Of a DNA stretch of 64,000 nucleotides, positions 24,001 through 30,000 are shown piece by piece. The stretch's first letter is position 1; every line of letters begins with the position of its first letter. Made by a program: the position numbers. This DNA comes from Escherichia coli O157:H7 (GTDB taxonomy: Bacteria; Pseudomonadota; Gammaproteobacteria; Enterobacterales; Enterobacteriaceae). The stretch is from NCBI RefSeq assembly GCF_013167455.1, contig NZ_CP038328.1; one strand, written 5' to 3'.

Positions 24001-27000
24001 TCTCTTCTCCTTGCGACACCGGCAGGACACCGGGCGCTTATGGTCGGCAAGCGACGTCCCTGTAGCAAGGCAAACCATCGCTTCACGTGAGATGCTGAAA
24101 ACGAAAGCTCATCCTTCTGCACTGGCGCACGTCGCCAGAAAGTATTGTTAATAAAGCGTAGTGAAACTTTTGCACAAAACAATACAAACTGTGTGGATTT
24201 ATCTTTTAGCGATAAAAATGGACCTATTTTTCTTTTTGCCGGGCGGTGGGATGTTTAGCCAGTTGCTAAACGAGTAAAAGAGAAGGAATTTATGGTGATG
24301 AAATGATCAATCTGCTTTTATTTCACGCTATCAATGCACTTTTGGCTGTTTTTCAGGCAAACAAACAGATTAGGGGTTTACACGCCGCATCGGGATGTTT
24401 ATAGTGCGCGTCATTCCGGAAGTGTGGCCGAGCGGTTGAAGGCACCGGTCTTGAAAACCGGCGACCCGAAAGGGTTCCAGAGTTCGAATCTCTGCGCTTC
24501 CGCCAAATAATCAAGGGGTTACCAAATGGTAGCCCCTTTGCTTTTTTGGCTCTTGGTATAAACTTGGTATACCAATTGGTATATTTTTATTCGGATGAGA
24601 TTATCGGTCATGAGCGGAACCTCAGGTTCCTCGTCTGATGCCGCTCTTGCAACACGTTACGCTGCCGAGTATTTTTGTAAAACATGGACTGCTCCAGGCC
24701 TGAACCAGGCAGAAGGATACAAAGCCATCTCAGATCTGTCGCATCACTATTTTCGTGCAGAAGGCTCTAGCCCTCCCCAATCTTTTTTGTGACACCCTGT
24801 TTCACTGAACATGAAGACACTCACCTTGTCCCTGATATTCATTAGCATCATCCTGATTATTTAACTTCTCTATTTAGGGAAGCCCGTCTGATACAAAGCT
24901 TCTATTCCTCGTTAAATATTCTCCATTCTGGCGCCAAGCCCTATCTATAGCTGATTGAAAACAACTCTAAAAACGTAATAATATCAAATAGTTTATTCCT
25001 ACAGCCGATCATTTTGAGTAAAATATTGACGAGAATTTCACAAAAGGTAGATTTCATGTAAACGGATAAATAAGACTATCCAATAAAGCTCTTATAAGGT
25101 TATCTATATGATAAATAGCATTAATTCTTTTTTTCCGGCCTTCCTCGCAGTATATCAAGTGCTATACGCAGCAGTACCTTCACTGTCTCGCAGCACAAAA
25201 GCACACCTAACACGGTAAAAACCAGCTCACCTTTTTCTCCCAGCAACAGTCCTGCCAGTGCAACAACTATTTTTAAGGTAAAAAATTCTTATACAGAATC
25301 AGGACTTCAACGTCCCACATCTTATACTCAGTCAAGTATAGAAAAAAACGCTTTACATCGGCCTCTACCTGATGTAGCTCAGCGTCTGGTGCAGCATCTT
25401 GCAGAGCATGGCATTCAACCAGCCCGGAGTATGGCTGAACATATTCCTCCGGCACCTAACTGGCCTGCGCCACCACCGCCAGTACAAAATGAACAATCAA
25501 GACCTCTGCCTGATGTGGCTCAGCGTCTGATGCAGCATCTTGCAGAGCATGGCATTCAACCAGCCCGGAATATGGCTGAACATATTCCTCCGGCACCTAA
25601 CTGGCCTGCGCCAACGCCGCCAGTACAAAATGAACAATCAAGACCTTTGCCTGATGTGGCTCAGCGTCTGATGCAGCATCTTGCAGAGCATGGCATTCAA
25701 CCAGCCCGGAATATGGCTGAACATATTCCTCCGGCACCTAACTGGCCTGCGCCAACGCCGCCAGTACAAAATGAACAATCAAGACCTTTGCCTGATGTGG
25801 CTCAGCGTCTGATGCAGCATCTTGCAGAGCATGGCATTCAACCAGCCCGGAATATGGCTGAACATATTCCTCCGGCACCTAACTGGCCTGCGCCAACGCC
25901 GCCAGTACAAAATGAACAATCAAGACCTTTGCCTGATGTGGCTCAGCGTCTGATGCAGCATCTTGCAGAGCATGGCATTCAACCAGCCCGGAATATGGCT
26001 GAACATATTCCTCCGGCACCTAACTGGCCTGCGCCAACGCCGCCAGTACAAAATGAACAATCAAGACCTTTGCCTGATGTGGCTCAGCGTCTGATGCAGC
26101 ATCTTGCAGAGCATGGCATTAATACATCTAAGCGCTCGTGATTATAATATAATTACCTATATTAGCTCTGACCTGACAGTTACCGGTTATTTATACAGGT
26201 ATCTGTCAGATTACATCTAACCAACAAAAAACCGGAGCCGGACTCCGGTTTTGTGAAGCTGTCGGCTATTTCATTCCGCCAATATTTTCCCACCTCCCGT
26301 CAGCACGCAGAATTTGCAGCGGTCTTACCACACACTGTATCTGCTTTTTATCTGCATCCAGTATCACCACCTGCGTGATTACCCCGTCCTGCTCCGGAAT
26401 AATGCCATTCTCATCTGACTCCAGGATGTCTGCCGGCCCCAGTCGCAGTTGTACTGTAAGCGACTGCCCGTGTTCACAGTCATCATGCTTTCCGCAACCG
26501 CACAGACGCTGCATAATTTTTTTTAATATGTTCATGTCATTCTCCTGTTCTGCCTGTATCACTGCCCACTTCATCCAGCCCCTTAACATCCTGCCACGGC
26601 CCGTCACCAAACCTGACCTGCAAATGCTGAAAAAAAACCTGAACCCGTGTGGCATCTTTGGGGGCAAGAAAGGTCAGTCCGGTGATGAGCGCACCATCTG
26701 TACCCGGGAACCAGCCATGGCTGTTTGTCTCAATAATGCTCGCCGGCCCCAGACGAAAACGGATTTGTGTCTCCCCCGGGTCGCCCTTCGGTCCCTGAGG
26801 TCCGGTTGCCCCCACCGGGCCAGCCGCACCTGTTTCTCCTTTCGGTCCCTGTGGGCCTGCCGGGCCTGCTGCCCCGGTGTCTCCCTTTGGACCCTGTGGA
26901 CCTGCATTTCCCGTCAGACCGGTCTCTCCCCGCTCTCCCCTGTCACCTTTCGGCCCCTGCGGGCCTGCCGGACCAGCATCACCTGCCGGTCCCCGTTCGC

Positions 27001-30000
27001 CGGTTGCCCCTGCCGGGCCGGTGTCGCCACGCTCTCCTTTATCTCCCTTCGGCCCCTGAGGACCCGCGGGACCCGGTTCCCCCTTTGGCCCGGGAGGTCC
27101 CACCACGGTGGGGATTCGGTTTACGGCTTCTTCCGCCGCTATCCTGCTTTGTTCCGCTGACTGTGCGCTTTCTGCTGACTCCCGGGCTTTTTCTGTTGCG
27201 GTCGTTGCATCCCTGGCTGCATTACCGGCTGCACTTTCTGCCGTCTTTCTTGACAATTCAGCTTCTGCTGCACTTTGTGATGACTCACTGGCTTTTTGAG
27301 CGGCCGCAGAAGCCGAGGACGAGGACGCCTCCTCTGACTGCTTTGCAGCGGCTGCACTTTCTGCCGCCTGCCGGGCTGACTCCGATGCATCCCCTGCTGA
27401 AGTGTCAGCATTTGCCGCGCTCTCTTCTGCCTGACTGGCTGATATGCCGGCATTCCTCGCGGACGTCTCCGCCTCTCCGGCATTCTTCTTCGCCTCCTCA
27501 GCGTGACGCGCCGCTTCTTCCACCATCAGTTCAAAACGACGCAGTGCCTCCGGCCGGACGTCATCCTCCGACATGGCACCGAGAAAATCATTCAGCGTCC
27601 CCGGTTGAGAATCTTCATACACGGTGATGGTCCCGGCATGTGACGGCGGGAACCCTTCCACCAACAGAATAACGCTGTACTGACCGTACTCAACGTCCAT
27701 GCTGTAACGACCGGCTTCATCCGGATTTTCAGAGGCCACCGTGTTCACCACCACCGTGGCGCTGTTACGTCTGGCTTTCAGTTGAATGGTGCAGTTCTCT
27801 ACCGGTTTTCCTGTGCCGTCTTTCAGTACACCTGAAATCTTTACTGCCATATTCACCCCACAAAAAAGCCCGCCTGAACCGGCGGGCTGTCATAACACTG
27901 TGTTACCTGGCTAATCAGAATTTATAGCCGACACCCACGATGAAGCCGTCAGTGCGCCAGTCGCCACTGCCGGAGCCTTCATAAGCAATATCAATGGCCA
28001 CGGATTCGATCGGGTTAAACTGCACGCCAGCTCCCCACGCCAGAGACGTGTTGCTGTGGCGACCGTCATCACTTCCGGTCAGCACATCATGCGTTTTCCC
28101 CTTGTTGTCAGTTACGCGGAGATAATCCCCGGAGAAAGTCGACACACGGCTGTAAGCCACACCCGCCATCGCATACGCGCTGAACCATTCATTCACGCGT
28201 ACAGACGGCCCCGCCATCACGCTGAACCAGCGGTTACGCACGGAATCTTCATGCCAGCGGGTATCGCTGTAGCGCGTTTTTTGCTCATCCTCAGCATTGG
28301 CATAACTGAAGGACGTAATCAGCCCCAGCGCGTCCATAAACTCATAACGGTATTTCACGTTAATCCCGTTCAGATCATCACTACCGGGAACGTTCGTCGA
28401 GGCATGGAGATACCCCGCGCTCAGCGTTGACTGATGTTCAGACGCCCATGCAGGCGCACCGGATACGGCCAGACAAATGGCTGCGGACAAAATGGCGGCA
28501 TAAAGTTTACGCATAATTACCTCTCGCTTTTCTGCAATAAAAAAGGCGCCATTTCTGGCGCCCGTATATGGGTTATAAAATTCAGCTGATACTGATGCCT
28601 GCGGTGGCTTTCTTCATCACCACAACCAGCAAATCGCTGATACTTGCTGTGGGATACCAGTTATTCACCAGCCATGCTGACACCGAAAACTCCAGCGTCA
28701 TGTGACCGTGACCGGCAGGCATATCAATAACGCCACTGTAAATCAGCGTATTATCCAGCGCGGTACGGTTATAAATTTCAGCACCGTTTTTCCGCACTAT
28801 CAGACGGCATGAGGAGTAAATATCAGTATGCTCTCTCTCATGTTTAGCGCCGCTGAATGCCACCGCCGGAATAACAATCTGCCGGTCAAACGGCTGATCG
28901 TCATAAACCCTGACGGTAATGGTCCCTGATGGCCACCGCTCCGGTGCACGGGAATCCCGGGGGAAAGCTTTGCCCACTGTTTTAACGAGATCGCCTTCAA
29001 TCTGGTTCGCGGACAGTTTTCCCAGAACCCGACAGTTCTCGTTAATCGTGACGTTGTTGAGCGTCCCGGAATTCGCATTCACGTTACCGCTGATATCAGC
29101 ATTTCTTGCGGTCAGCCTGCCCTCCGGCGTCAGGGAAAACGTCGGGGGATTGGCGGATGACGTGATACTCACCGCAAACAGTCGTTTCAGGAACACATCG
29201 TTCATGAACAACTGATTCCCCTGCGCCACAAATAACGGCGTGGTGTTGCCGTCCTCCGGGTTAATCATCGCAATACGGTCAGCCAGCAGCAGTATGTTGC
29301 TCAGGGGCTGGCCATCAGTATCCTCAATCCCCGCTCCAATACCGGCAACATAGGGTATGCCATTTTTTGTTTTCTGTACCTTCAGCATGTAAAGTGCAGC
29401 AAGGTCATCATTTGTGTCCTTCTGCACGCGCTGTATCTGCTGTATGATGGCGCTCTGGTCCTCCAGCGTTTTACTGACCGTCTGTGTGATTTCATTGCGG
29501 GTTTCGGTGATGGAGGTCTTCATCTCCGCCATCTCATCCGCAAGCTGGCTGTTGTCTATCAGCTCCCACAGCCCCTGAGCCAGATGCAGTTTTCCTATTT
29601 TTTCCCGAAACAGCCCCAGATACCCTTCTGCATCATTGCTGGCCCGGCCACTGGCTTCCACAAAAGCAGATTTCCCCACCAGGTTGACGCTGCGCACGTA
29701 AAACCAGAAATCCTTCCCGGGCTTAATGTGCGGGCCGGATACACTCCACTGACTGCCGGTCCCCAGATAACGGGCAGAGGTTTCCACCTGAGATGTATCT
29801 GCGATTTTTGTCTCCGAAAACCAGAACTCAAACTGTACCGTCGGGTCATACACCGCAAGACGCGGGACCGCTGTTATCTGAAAATAGCCCGGTGTCAGCT
29901 CAATCGTGGCGGGTACCGCAGGTGCATTAATCCTGAACGTGGTGGTGGCCGGTTCCCCCTGCTGGCCATAACTGTTAATCGCCCTGACCGTCAGGGTGTA

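What the first reader, a model, noticed from the sequence alone, without database searches (positions are those of the whole stretch)
26266..27856. Collagen-repeat tail fibre followed by a small ORF duplicating its C-terminal domain
The Stf-like protein has a lambda-type N-terminus, then a low-complexity Ala/Ser/Glu region, about 35 Gly-X-Y triplets and a distinct C-terminal domain. The overlapping downstream 89-aa ORF shares that C-terminal domain motif (RLGPA.I.E...DG). It may be a chaperone derived from the fibre tip or an alternative-tip cassette.
Basis: seen in the sequence. Interest (0 to 1): 0.35.

Follow-up and report, generated by a model that had tools for sequence, protein, structure and literature searches.

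The report
Tail fibre plus stand-alone tip-domain paralogue
An E. coli prophage encodes a collagen-stalked tail fibre followed by a small, well-conserved gene that is an old copy of the fibre's tip domain; the pair is real and already described in Shiga-toxin phages, but what the small protein does is still unknown.

Summary
The minus-strand gene at 26537-27850 is a 437-aa "EPclA"-type side tail fibre. It has a lambda Stf-like N-terminal domain, an Ala/Ser/Glu-rich rod, 37 Gly-X-Y triplets and a 64-aa Phage_fiber_C (PfC) knob. One base after its stop codon starts an 89-aa ORF (26266-26535) whose residues 28-89 are a second PfC domain (35% identity, E=2e-11; both match Pfam PF06820 at about 1e-36).

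The arrangement is already known. PGAP, PHROG 576 and Pfam all catalogue the small protein, and Mondal et al. 2016 described the equivalent ORF68 of Stx2 phage Sp5 and listed it among non-essential genes.

- **Real gene:** it is under purifying selection (pN/pS 0.09).
- **Always paired:** it sits downstream of the fibre in 74 of 74 PfC fibres surveyed.
- **Widespread:** 697 of 5426 complete E. coli genomes carry it, at about 10 copies each.
- **Modular:** it travels with PfC on at least three different fibre scaffolds, including one in Salmonella.

The swap-cassette reading is poorly supported. The two copies share about 54% nucleotide identity, there is no invertase or reverse transcriptase nearby, and no fibre in 1.8 billion proteins ends with the small-ORF type. 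An essential chaperone is also unlikely. My best guess is a dispensable partner of the fibre tip.

The parts
26537..27850 (-). Side tail fibre gene, 437 aa, EPclA architecture (PfN, coiled-coil rod, collagen, PfC). Coordinates include the stop codon.
   Evidence: ORF list and sequence. Pfam PF08400, PF01391 and PF06820. PGAP annotation of the 100%-identical genome. Same architecture as EPclA in PMC3368898.
27452..27850 (-). PfN domain: lambda Stf-like N-terminal domain, about residues 1-133.
   Evidence: Pfam PF08400, E=8.7e-69, covering profile positions 1-133 of 134.
27101..27445 (-). Ala/Ser/Glu-rich low-complexity rod, residues 136-250. Ghosh et al. call this the 'PCoil' trimeric coiled coil.
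   Evidence: Composition is 37 Ala, 23 Ser and 16 Glu in 115 residues. The coiled-coil assignment comes from PMC3368898 and was not tested here.
26768..27100 (-). Collagen-like region: 37 uninterrupted Gly-X-Y triplets, residues 251-361.
   Evidence: Regex count. Pfam PF01391. 23-nt direct-repeat family D2.
26573..26764 (-). Fibre PfC knob, residues 363-426. This is the trimerisation domain and the distal tip.
   Evidence: Pfam PF06820, E=5.6e-37. Trimerisation and collagen-nucleating role shown experimentally for the same residues 363-426 in PMC3368898. The variable loops are concentrated here.
26542..26546 (-). AGGAG ribosome-binding site for the small ORF. It lies inside the last codons of the fibre gene, 6 nt upstream of the ATG.
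   Evidence: Sequence. The junction AGGAGAATGACATG is identical in 67 of 75 loci, and the rest differ by a few bases upstream.
26266..26535 (-). Small ORF, 89 aa, a stand-alone PfC protein. Coordinates include the stop codon.
   Evidence: PHROG 576 matched over the full length, E=6e-59. PGAP name 'phage tail fiber C-terminal domain-containing protein'. pN/pS 0.165 overall.
26455..26535 (-). Leader of the small protein, residues 1-27: a predicted short helix (residues 3-12) followed by a Cys/His-rich, low-confidence linker (CGCGKHDDCEH).
   Evidence: AlphaFold2 model: helix at 3-12, pLDDT below 50 for residues 14-19. This is the most variable part of the small protein, pN/pS 0.28.
26269..26454 (-). 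PfC domain of the small protein, residues 28-89.
   Evidence: Pfam PF06820, E=7.7e-36. pN/pS 0.09. Modelled as five beta strands with block-mean pLDDT of 75-91.
26228..26252 (-). Terminator-like hairpin followed by a T-run, 14 nt after the small ORF's stop codon. It marks the end of the fibre/small-ORF transcription unit.
   Evidence: Terminator scan: 11-pair stem, 3-nt loop. Sequence.

Best explanation
**Shown.** The locus is the distal end of the late operon of a lambdoid prophage integrated next to tRNA-Ser and hyaA. It encodes an EPclA-type side tail fibre. The fibre's 64-aa PfC domain is the self-trimerising knob that nucleates the collagen triple helix and forms the tip furthest from the tail. 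The next gene is an ancient, separately translated paralogue of that knob. It is 89 aa long: a short N-terminal helix, a Cys/His-rich linker and a PfC domain. It has its own AGGAG ribosome-binding site inside the fibre's last codons, a 1-nt gap between the fibre stop codon and its ATG, and a terminator-like hairpin right after it.

**Inferred.** The small protein is made together with the fibre by translational coupling. It most likely forms its own PfC trimer, because isolated PfC trimerises. It most likely acts as a dispensable accessory that associates with the fibre tip, as a cap, adaptor or folding aid carried at low copy into virions. It is probably not a spare tip for recombination. Its conserved loops, set against the fibre's variable loops, suggest it is not itself the host-range determinant.
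For: **The gene is real and selected.**
- It is intact at 89 aa in 80 of 80 IMG/VR loci that carry it.
- pN/pS is 0.09 in its PfC part, against 0.25 for the fibre's PfC.
- It is present in 697 of 5426 complete E. coli genomes, with a median of 10 copies.

**The linkage to the fibre is obligate.**
- In 74 of 74 loci chosen by the fibre's PfC and having enough downstream sequence, a small PfC ORF follows. In 69 it is the canonical 89-aa form at the same offset.
- The pair travels on different scaffolds: lambda-type EPclA, podovirus EPclB fibres of 630-640 aa, and a 212-aa short-fibre protein in Salmonella, where the two genes overlap by 14 nt.
- Small-protein orthologues from E. coli and Salmonella are 63% identical, while their cognate fibre PfCs are only 36% identical. 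The duplication is therefore old and both copies have been kept.

**Coupled expression.** The conserved junction is AGGAGAATGACATG, and a terminator-like hairpin follows at 26228-26252.

**Virion association.** Two peptides of the phi24B homologue ('gp59'), VITQVVILDADKK and ADGTWENIGGMK, appear in the proteome table of purified virions. Each has 3 in the column I read as spectral counts, against 47 for the fibre's C-terminal peptide.

**PfC is a tip domain.**
- PfC trimerises and refolds the collagen helix (PMC3368898).
- hhalign places PfC at the extreme C-terminus of Mu S'.

**Precedent.** A non-essential 'chaperone cap' on a fibre tip has been described in PMC10579305.
Against: - No interaction between the small protein and the fibre has been shown. 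The linked-trimer AlphaFold run failed with pLDDT 30.
- The virion signal is weak, at 3 versus 47, and could be carry-over of a cytoplasmic protein. The stored supplement is truncated.
- The phi24B preprint's main text does not mention gp59, gp60 or gp58.
- 45 fibre alleles and 57 small-protein alleles occur in 88 different combinations, so there is no sign of allele-specific co-adaptation.
- Deleting the Sp5 homologue gave no reported defect on K-12 (PMC5155283). Any role is therefore conditional or quantitative.
Confidence: 0.42

Rival explanations
1. Reservoir or alternative-tip cassette. The small ORF is a stored copy of a tip domain that recombination moves onto the fibre to change receptor specificity. 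This is Mondal et al.'s suggestion and the first reader's second idea.
For: - The copy lies directly downstream of the tip it resembles.
- Mondal et al. proposed this role (PMC5155283).
- One assembly (L167) carries a chimera of small-ORF residues 1-40 fused to the C-terminal half of a fibre PfC, lying between a normal fibre gene and a normal small ORF. Unequal exchange between the two copies can therefore happen.
Against: - Nucleotide identity is about 54% and the longest shared word is 11 nt.
- No fibre longer than 121 aa carries a small-ORF-type PfC among 1.84 billion representative proteins.
- The copies are in the same orientation, with no flanking inverted repeats.
- No invertase or reverse transcriptase is annotated within about 6 kb.
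- The small copy is the more conserved one, and its loops do not vary.
- It has its own ribosome-binding site and is under strong purifying selection as a protein.
- The one chimera seen made a new small ORF, not a new fibre.
Confidence: 0.08
2. Obligatory tail-fibre assembly chaperone. The small protein is a functional analogue of lambda Tfa, Mu U or T4 gp38 and is needed to fold or trimerise the fibre.
For: - It occupies the slot directly downstream of stf where lambda has tfa, and there is no other chaperone-like gene before the terminator.
- It is translationally coupled to the fibre gene.
- Linkage is universal.
Against: - Recombinant EPclA expressed from the fibre ORF alone gives soluble trimers with a folded collagen helix, and isolated PfC trimerises and renucleates the helix after melting (PMC3368898).
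- Sp5 ORF68 is listed among non-essential late genes, whereas the fibre gene ORF67 is essential (PMC5155283).
- No Pfam match other than PF06820 was found at E up to 1, so it is not a member of the known Tfa families.
Confidence: 0.1
3. Free soluble knob acting as a decoy or blocker. The small trimer is released at lysis, or made in lysogens, and binds a conserved cell-surface ligand. This would keep progeny from sticking to debris or exclude related phages.
For: - PfC is an autonomous trimeric knob.
- The small protein is highly conserved, as expected if it binds a conserved ligand.
- It is dispensable in plaque and lysogeny assays on K-12.
- Its abundance in virion preparations is low.
Against: - It has no signal peptide and no hydrophobic segment. 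The leader MNILKKIMQRLCGCG has no hydrophobic core (my own reading, no predictor was run). It could therefore act only after lysis.
- No promoter of its own was found. The only promoter-like match overlaps its start codon.
- No ligand is known.
- Its loops differ from the fibre's, so it would not compete for the same receptor.
Confidence: 0.15
4. Frameshift fusion. A +1 shift near the end of the fibre gene fuses the two ORFs, producing a minor fibre form with two tandem PfC domains.
For: - In E. coli the small ORF's reading frame is open for 44 codons upstream of its ATG and overlaps the fibre's end.
- This window has a T8 run at 26630-26637.
- The phi24B authors included hypothetical 'Fusion_6159_FS1/FS2' proteins in their mass-spectrometry database.
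Against: - The T-run is not conserved. Most alleles encode VQGFF, VQGLF or VQGMF at that position.
- In the Salmonella homologue the upstream frame is closed by several stop codons, one of them two codons before the ATG.
- Mondal et al. found no frameshift signal.
- The normal fibre C-terminal peptide is abundant, and no junction peptide was found in the stored part of the phi24B table.
- The one natural fusion protein (P0155) comes from an assembly riddled with frameshifts.
- A shift at the T-run would break the first PfC domain.
Confidence: 0.04
5. Functionless remnant left by an old tip replacement.
For: It is small, dispensable in the laboratory, and sits next to a recombination-prone effector locus. 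Many truncated or fused variants exist in databases.
Against: - pN/pS is 0.09.
- The ORF is intact in 80 of 80 loci.
- It is conserved at 63% identity between E. coli and Salmonella, with start, ribosome-binding site and coupling preserved.
Confidence: 0.02

Closest known systems
[not shown]
   Same: Same domain order (PfN, PCoil, Col, PfC), same length (437 aa), same 111-residue collagen segment and same PfC boundaries (residues 363-426). The window's gene is a member of this group.
   Different: Nothing material. That paper did not describe the downstream small ORF.
ORF67/ORF68 of Stx2 phage Sp5 (Mondal et al. 2016, PMC5155283), and gp61/'gp59' of phi24B
   Same: An 89-aa PfC-only ORF lies directly after a collagen-containing fibre gene ending in PfC. 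The small proteins are close homologues; EPclB-type fibres of 630-640 aa carried the same small ORF in my survey.
   Different: Those fibres are the EPclB type on short-tailed phages, with a different N-terminus and two collagen segments. Here the scaffold is a lambda-type side fibre on a long-tailed prophage.
Lambda Stf/Tfa, Mu S/U and P2 H/G fibre-chaperone pairs
   Same: The gene order is the same: fibre gene, then a small partner gene. The N-terminal domain is shared with lambda Stf (PF08400). The PfC model's best structural matches are Mu fibre structures (8ju3, 5yvq). TfaMu stays bound to the fibre tip (as cited in PMC10579305).
   Different: The small protein has no sequence relation to Tfa proteins. 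It is instead a paralogue of the tip itself. Homologues are not required for fibre folding or infectivity.
Transient 'chaperone caps' of Alteromonas phages A5 and V22 (PMC10579305)
   Same: A small protein encoded downstream of the fibre gene is dispensable for making functional fibres yet binds the tip.
   Different: Those caps resemble intramolecular chaperone domains, not the tip domain. Binding has been shown for them and has not been shown here.
Alternative-tip systems: the Mu G-segment and P1 C-segment inversion, and diversity-generating retroelements (BPP-1 mtd with its TR/VR repeats)
   Same: A second copy of tip-coding sequence lies next to the fibre gene.
   Different: Here there is no inversion geometry, invertase or reverse transcriptase. 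The copies share about 54% nucleotide identity, whereas a TR/VR pair is nearly identical. The second copy is an expressed, selected protein.

Membership tests
Pfam PF06820 Phage_fiber_C (PfC) | Match to the 64-position profile above the gathering score of 25 bits | tested here: met
   Fibre 126.4 bits and small ORF 122.7 bits, both covering profile positions 1-64.
EPclA architecture (Ghosh 2012) | PfN domain at the N-terminus | tested here: met
   PF08400, E=8.7e-69.
EPclA architecture (Ghosh 2012) | A single uninterrupted collagen (Gly-X-Y)n segment followed directly by PfC | tested here: met
   37 triplets at residues 251-361, then PfC at 363-426.
EPclA architecture (Ghosh 2012) | PCoil region forming a trimeric alpha-helical coiled coil | not tested
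   Only the composition was checked (Ala/Ser/Glu-rich, 115 aa). Coiled-coil behaviour is taken from PMC3368898.
Lambda Stf side tail fibre | Stf-type N-terminal tail-attachment domain | tested here: met
   PF08400. The gene order J, lom, stf is the same as in lambda.
Lambda Stf side tail fibre | Stf-type C-terminal part (Phage_fiber_2 repeats) with a Tfa partner gene | tested here: not met
   No PF03406 hit in the fibre and no Tfa-family hit in the downstream ORF at E up to 1.
Tail fibre assembly chaperones (Tfa, Mu U, P2 G) | Sequence membership in a Tfa family | tested here: not met
   The small ORF hits only PF06820 in Pfam. In PHROGs it hits PHROG 576 and 13758 ('tail fiber protein') and weakly PHROG 1658 (unknown function, E=4.4e-4). 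It has no NCBIfam hit.
Tail fibre assembly chaperones (Tfa, Mu U, P2 G) | Required for folding or trimerisation of the cognate fibre | not testable with these tools
   Literature on homologues argues against it. EPclA and PfC trimerise alone (PMC3368898), and Sp5 ORF68 is non-essential (PMC5155283).
Invertible alternative-tip segments (Mu Gin/G, P1 Cin/C) | Alternative tip in inverted orientation, flanked by inverted repeats, with an adjacent invertase | tested here: not met
   The copies are in the same orientation. Only short chance-level inverted repeats were found. No invertase is annotated within about 6 kb.
Diversity-generating retroelement | Near-identical template and variable repeats plus a reverse transcriptase | tested here: not met
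   The two copies share about 54% nucleotide identity. No reverse transcriptase is annotated in the neighbourhood.
Mu S/S' tail-fibre distal domain (structural class) | Significant fold or profile similarity to the C-terminal tip domain in solved Mu fibre structures | tested here: inconclusive
   [not shown]

The most novel reading that the evidence does not exclude
The small PfC protein may define a new class of fibre-tip partner: a trans-acting copy of the tip domain itself. Its own trimer would dock onto or cap the fibre's PfC knob, and so tune adsorption or protect the tip. It would have evolved by duplication of the tip rather than from the Tfa, gp38 or intramolecular-chaperone lineages, and it would move between sipho-, podo- and myovirus-type fibre scaffolds as a two-gene module.
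Probability: 0.25. Interest if true: 0.5.

Novelty: already known. Interest (0 to 1): 0.27.

Why it matters
These fibres sit on the roughly ten lambdoid prophages per EHEC genome that carry Shiga toxins and type III effectors. They therefore bear on how those phages find new hosts. The receptor and role of the collagen fibres are still unsettled; the phi24B preprint argues that the fibre's C-terminal domain is not the BamA binder. The small PfC protein is among the most conserved and most often repeated genes of these prophages, yet it has no assigned function.

If it proves to be a tip-derived cap or adaptor, it would add a new kind of fibre accessory and a handle for engineering collagen-stalked fibres. 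As a genome-scan finding it is ordinary, because the gene pair is catalogued and has already been remarked on in print.

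Tried and rejected
- **Linked homotrimer model.** I predicted three copies of the small protein joined by Gly-Ser linkers, using alignment A3. Mean pLDDT was 30 and pTM 0.22, so the result is uninformative.
- **Sequence search of the PDB.** A PfC profile found no hit at E up to 10.
- **hhalign against Mu S (G+ form).** Only a 7-residue match.
- **Programmed frameshift through the T8 run.** Rejected, because neither the run nor the open upstream frame is conserved.
- **P0144 as a relative.** This 993-aa protein gave 9 matched stretches in the exhaustive search, but it is an unrelated Asp/Gly/Thr-rich repeat protein and the matches are compositional.
- **P0155 as a natural fibre/small-ORF fusion.** Rejected, because the source assembly has frameshift fragments throughout the tail genes.
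- **Lipoprotein or secreted reading of the LCGC motif.** Rejected on inspection. There is no hydrophobic core before the Cys in either the E. coli or the Salmonella leader. No predictor was run.
- **Allele co-variation between the fibre PfC and the small protein.** 88 combinations of 45 and 57 alleles gave no signal.
- **Literature on lambda_2B8 fibres.** Nothing further is held in the library.

Full report
**Context.** The window is 100% identical over the queried 1.8 kb to E. coli strain CDC#03-98. The feature lies at the end of a lambdoid prophage inserted beside tRNA-Ser(tga) (24418-24505) and hyaABCD. On the minus strand the order is J (28582-32055), lom (27915-28514), the fibre gene, the small ORF and a terminator-like hairpin. 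On the plus strand a frameshifted tccP2 effector gene with 141-nt repeats follows.

**Checking the observation.**
- The fibre ORF is 439 aa from GTG 27856, or 437 aa from ATG 27850. The ATG is the PGAP call and is preceded by GGGGTGA.
- It matches Pfam PF08400 (prophage tail fibre N-terminal, E=8.7e-69), PF01391 (collagen) and PF06820 (Phage_fiber_C, E=5.6e-37).
- It has 37 uninterrupted Gly-X-Y triplets. A 115-residue stretch before them is 37 Ala, 23 Ser and 16 Glu.
- The 89-aa ORF (26266-26535) matches PF06820 over the whole profile at E=7.7e-36.
- BLASTP aligns it to fibre residues 365-427 at 35% identity, E=2e-11.

Two details need adjusting. There are 37 triplets rather than about 35. 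The 89-aa ORF starts one base after the fibre's stop codon rather than overlapping it.

**What is already known.**
- The fibre is the 'EPclA' architecture of Ghosh et al. 2012 (PMC3368898), with the same length and domain boundaries. That paper shows experimentally that PfC residues 363-426 form a trimer on their own. It also shows that a Col-PfC fragment has a collagen triple helix melting at 42 °C which refolds at once on cooling, and that full-length recombinant EPclA is a trimer.
- Mondal et al. [quoted passage not shown] The fibre gene ORF67 is essential. [quoted passage not shown] The authors found no frameshift signal and suggested it may be 'an intragenomic reservoir sequence'.
- PGAP names the small protein 'phage tail fiber C-terminal domain-containing protein', and it has its own PHROG family, 576.

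The arrangement is thus catalogued and has been remarked on in print. Its function has not been determined.

**Is the small ORF a real gene?**
- Among 80 IMG/VR loci fetched with the small protein as query, it is intact at 89 aa in all 80 that carry it. In four of them the fibre's C-terminus is disrupted while the small ORF is whole.
- Nei-Gojobori pN/pS is 0.165 for the whole ORF. It is 0.28 for the 27-residue leader and 0.09 for the PfC part. The fibre's own PfC gives 0.25.
- In the fibre, amino-acid changes cluster at a few positions: LGP[A/G/M][S/N/R], NS[H/N/Y]G, FP[G/D]T, FL[A/D]P, AT[R/Q]VQ[G/V][F/L/M/V]F[Q/R]. The corresponding loops of the small protein do not vary.
- The junction AGGAGAATGACATG, which holds the ribosome-binding site, the fibre stop codon, one spacer base and the ATG, is identical in 67 of 75 loci.
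- The ORF occurs in 697 of 5426 complete E. coli genomes, with a median of 10 copies per genome.

**Is the pairing universal?** I ran the reverse survey, choosing loci by the fibre's PfC. It gave 74 loci with enough downstream sequence. All 74 have a small PfC ORF, 69 in the canonical form, and the set includes EPclB-type fibres of 630-640 aa.

The family is narrow. It covers E. coli, E. albertii, Citrobacter rodentium and Salmonella enterica.

In a Salmonella contig (L082) the PfC domain sits on a 212-aa protein. Its N-terminal 120-155 residues resemble short tail-fibre proteins of Yersinia and Vibrio phages, and it has no collagen. It is again followed by a small PfC ORF, this one of 79 aa and overlapping it by 14 nt. 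Identities are:

| Comparison | Identity |
|---|---|
| Small protein, E. coli vs Salmonella | 63% |
| Fibre PfC, E. coli vs Salmonella | 36% |
| Fibre PfC vs small protein, within or between the two genomes | 29-36% |

. The duplication is therefore old, the two lineages are distinct, and the small one evolves more slowly. The PfC tip and the small PfC gene move together as a two-gene module across unrelated fibre scaffolds.

**Testing the cassette and frameshift ideas.**
- The two PfC-coding segments share about 54% nucleotide identity, and their longest common word is 11 nt. The only DNA repeat linking them is 30 nt at 73%.
- There are no flanking inverted repeats, and no invertase or reverse transcriptase is annotated nearby.
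- An exhaustive phmmer search of 1.84 billion representative proteins gave 58 hits. Every true relative is 121 aa or shorter, so no fibre ends in the small-ORF type of PfC.
- One assembly (L167) carries fibre, then a 92-aa chimera (small-ORF residues 1-40 fused to the C-terminal half of a fibre PfC), then a normal small ORF. This looks like a rare unequal crossover, and it made another small ORF rather than a new fibre.
- In E. coli the small ORF's frame is open for 44 codons upstream, and this window has a T8 run at 26630-26637. The run is not conserved. The frame is closed by stop codons in Salmonella. The one database 'fusion' (P0155) comes from an assembly full of frameshifts.

**Evidence on location.** The phi24B cryo-EM preprint (bioRxiv 10.64898/2026.04.10.717836) describes the homologous fibre gp61. 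It has a collagen shaft and a small C-terminal globular domain, and the authors argue that this domain does not bind BamA.

The preprint's proteome supplement for purified virions lists two peptides unique to the small ORF ('gp59'): VITQVVILDADKK and ADGTWENIGGMK. Each has 3 in the column I read as spectral counts. The fibre's normal C-terminal peptide [11 protein letters not shown] has 47. I found no peptides from the hypothetical fusion junction, but the stored file is truncated. This is suggestive of low-level virion association and is not proof.

**Structure.**
- An AlphaFold2 monomer model of the small protein, built on a 31-sequence alignment, has mean pLDDT 78. It shows an N-terminal helix (residues 3-12), a low-confidence Cys/His-rich linker, and a five-strand beta domain with block-mean pLDDT of 75-91.
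- Foldseek's best match is the Mu fibre-chaperone complex 5yvq (probability 0.99, E 0.07).
- hhalign places PfC on the last 55 residues of Mu S' at 28% identity, without statistical support.

Three weak results point at the same protein, which makes a distal-tip homology plausible but unproven. The linked-trimer model failed.

**Interpretation.** The descriptive part is secure. This is a known EHEC prophage fibre plus a selected, co-translated paralogue of its tip domain.

For function, the data argue against three readings:
- A decaying remnant, because of the selection and conservation.
- A swap cassette, because there is no substrate, no machinery and no products.
- An obligatory chaperone, because homologous fibres fold without it and a homologous phage infects without it.

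What remains is a dispensable accessory. I favour a tip-associated partner or cap, for four reasons: obligate linkage across scaffolds, translational coupling, traces in virions, and the precedent of non-essential chaperone caps and of tip-bound TfaMu. A free soluble knob released at lysis is the main alternative.

The small protein's invariant loops, set against the fibre's variable ones, suggest it is not the host-range determinant.

**Verdict.** Interest is modest. The open question of what this very abundant, conserved small protein does is real but specialised.

Noticed in passing
window 25221-26225 (+), with ORF 25389-26141: Tandem 141-nt (47-aa) proline-rich repeats of the type III effector gene tccP2. 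The gene is annotated as frameshifted in the identical genome. An espV fragment lies at about 24595-24792. This is the exchangeable effector locus next to the fibre genes.
   Followed up: partly
window 24418-24505 (+): tRNA-Ser(tga) between hyaA and the prophage end, probably the integration site.
   Followed up: partly
window 26630-26637 (-): T8 homopolymer inside the fibre's PfC coding region. The +1 frame is open from here to the small ORF's ATG. Neither feature is conserved in other alleles or in Salmonella, so this is probably chance.
   Followed up: yes
L167 2697-2975 (GCA_005381265.1): A 92-aa chimeric ORF (small-ORF residues 1-40 fused to the C-terminal half of a fibre PfC) lies between a normal fibre gene and a normal small ORF. 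It looks like an unequal crossover between the two PfC copies, or an assembly artefact.
   Followed up: partly
L082 110-974 (Salmonella enterica, GCA_008387015.1): Here the PfC domain is on a 212-aa, non-collagen short-fibre protein with a weak CBM_5_12 match. It overlaps a 79-aa small PfC ORF by 14 nt. NleG and SopA-like effector genes lie downstream, mirroring the E. coli layout.
   Followed up: partly
L083-L085 about 5479-6237 (Citrobacter rodentium): A decayed copy of the pair in a prophage remnant. The fibre is collapsed to about 166 aa (a PfN fragment plus PfC), and the small ORF is shortened to 78 aa by a frameshift in its leader. NleG lies next to it.
   Followed up: partly
window 27867-27888 (-): A strong terminator-like hairpin (8 pairs, 7 of them G-C, followed by a T-run) lies between lom and the fibre start. 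The fibre and small-ORF unit is therefore bracketed by hairpins, and expression presumably depends on Q-mediated antitermination.
   Followed up: no
window 26455-26535 (-), small-protein residues 12-22: The Cys/His-rich motif CGCGKHDDCEH in the leader is partly conserved in Salmonella (HCLFGC). In a trimer it could bind metal or form disulfides. It is variable (C20 can be R, H22 can be N) and is modelled with low confidence.
   Followed up: no
window 52814-52930, 55460-55976, 60701-60875, 5170-5592: Other RNA features in the window: an IS3-type ALIL frameshift pseudoknot; the sRNA STnc100 next to a tRNA Met/Arg/Arg cluster, as is typical of lambdoid late regions; a sok antitoxin RNA; and the cspA thermoregulator outside the prophage.
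   Followed up: no
L001 12040-12567 (in the window, just beyond J on the plus strand): A sodC superoxide dismutase gene sits among the tail genes, between J and the tail assembly genes and on the opposite strand. It is a known moron of EHEC prophages.
   Followed up: no
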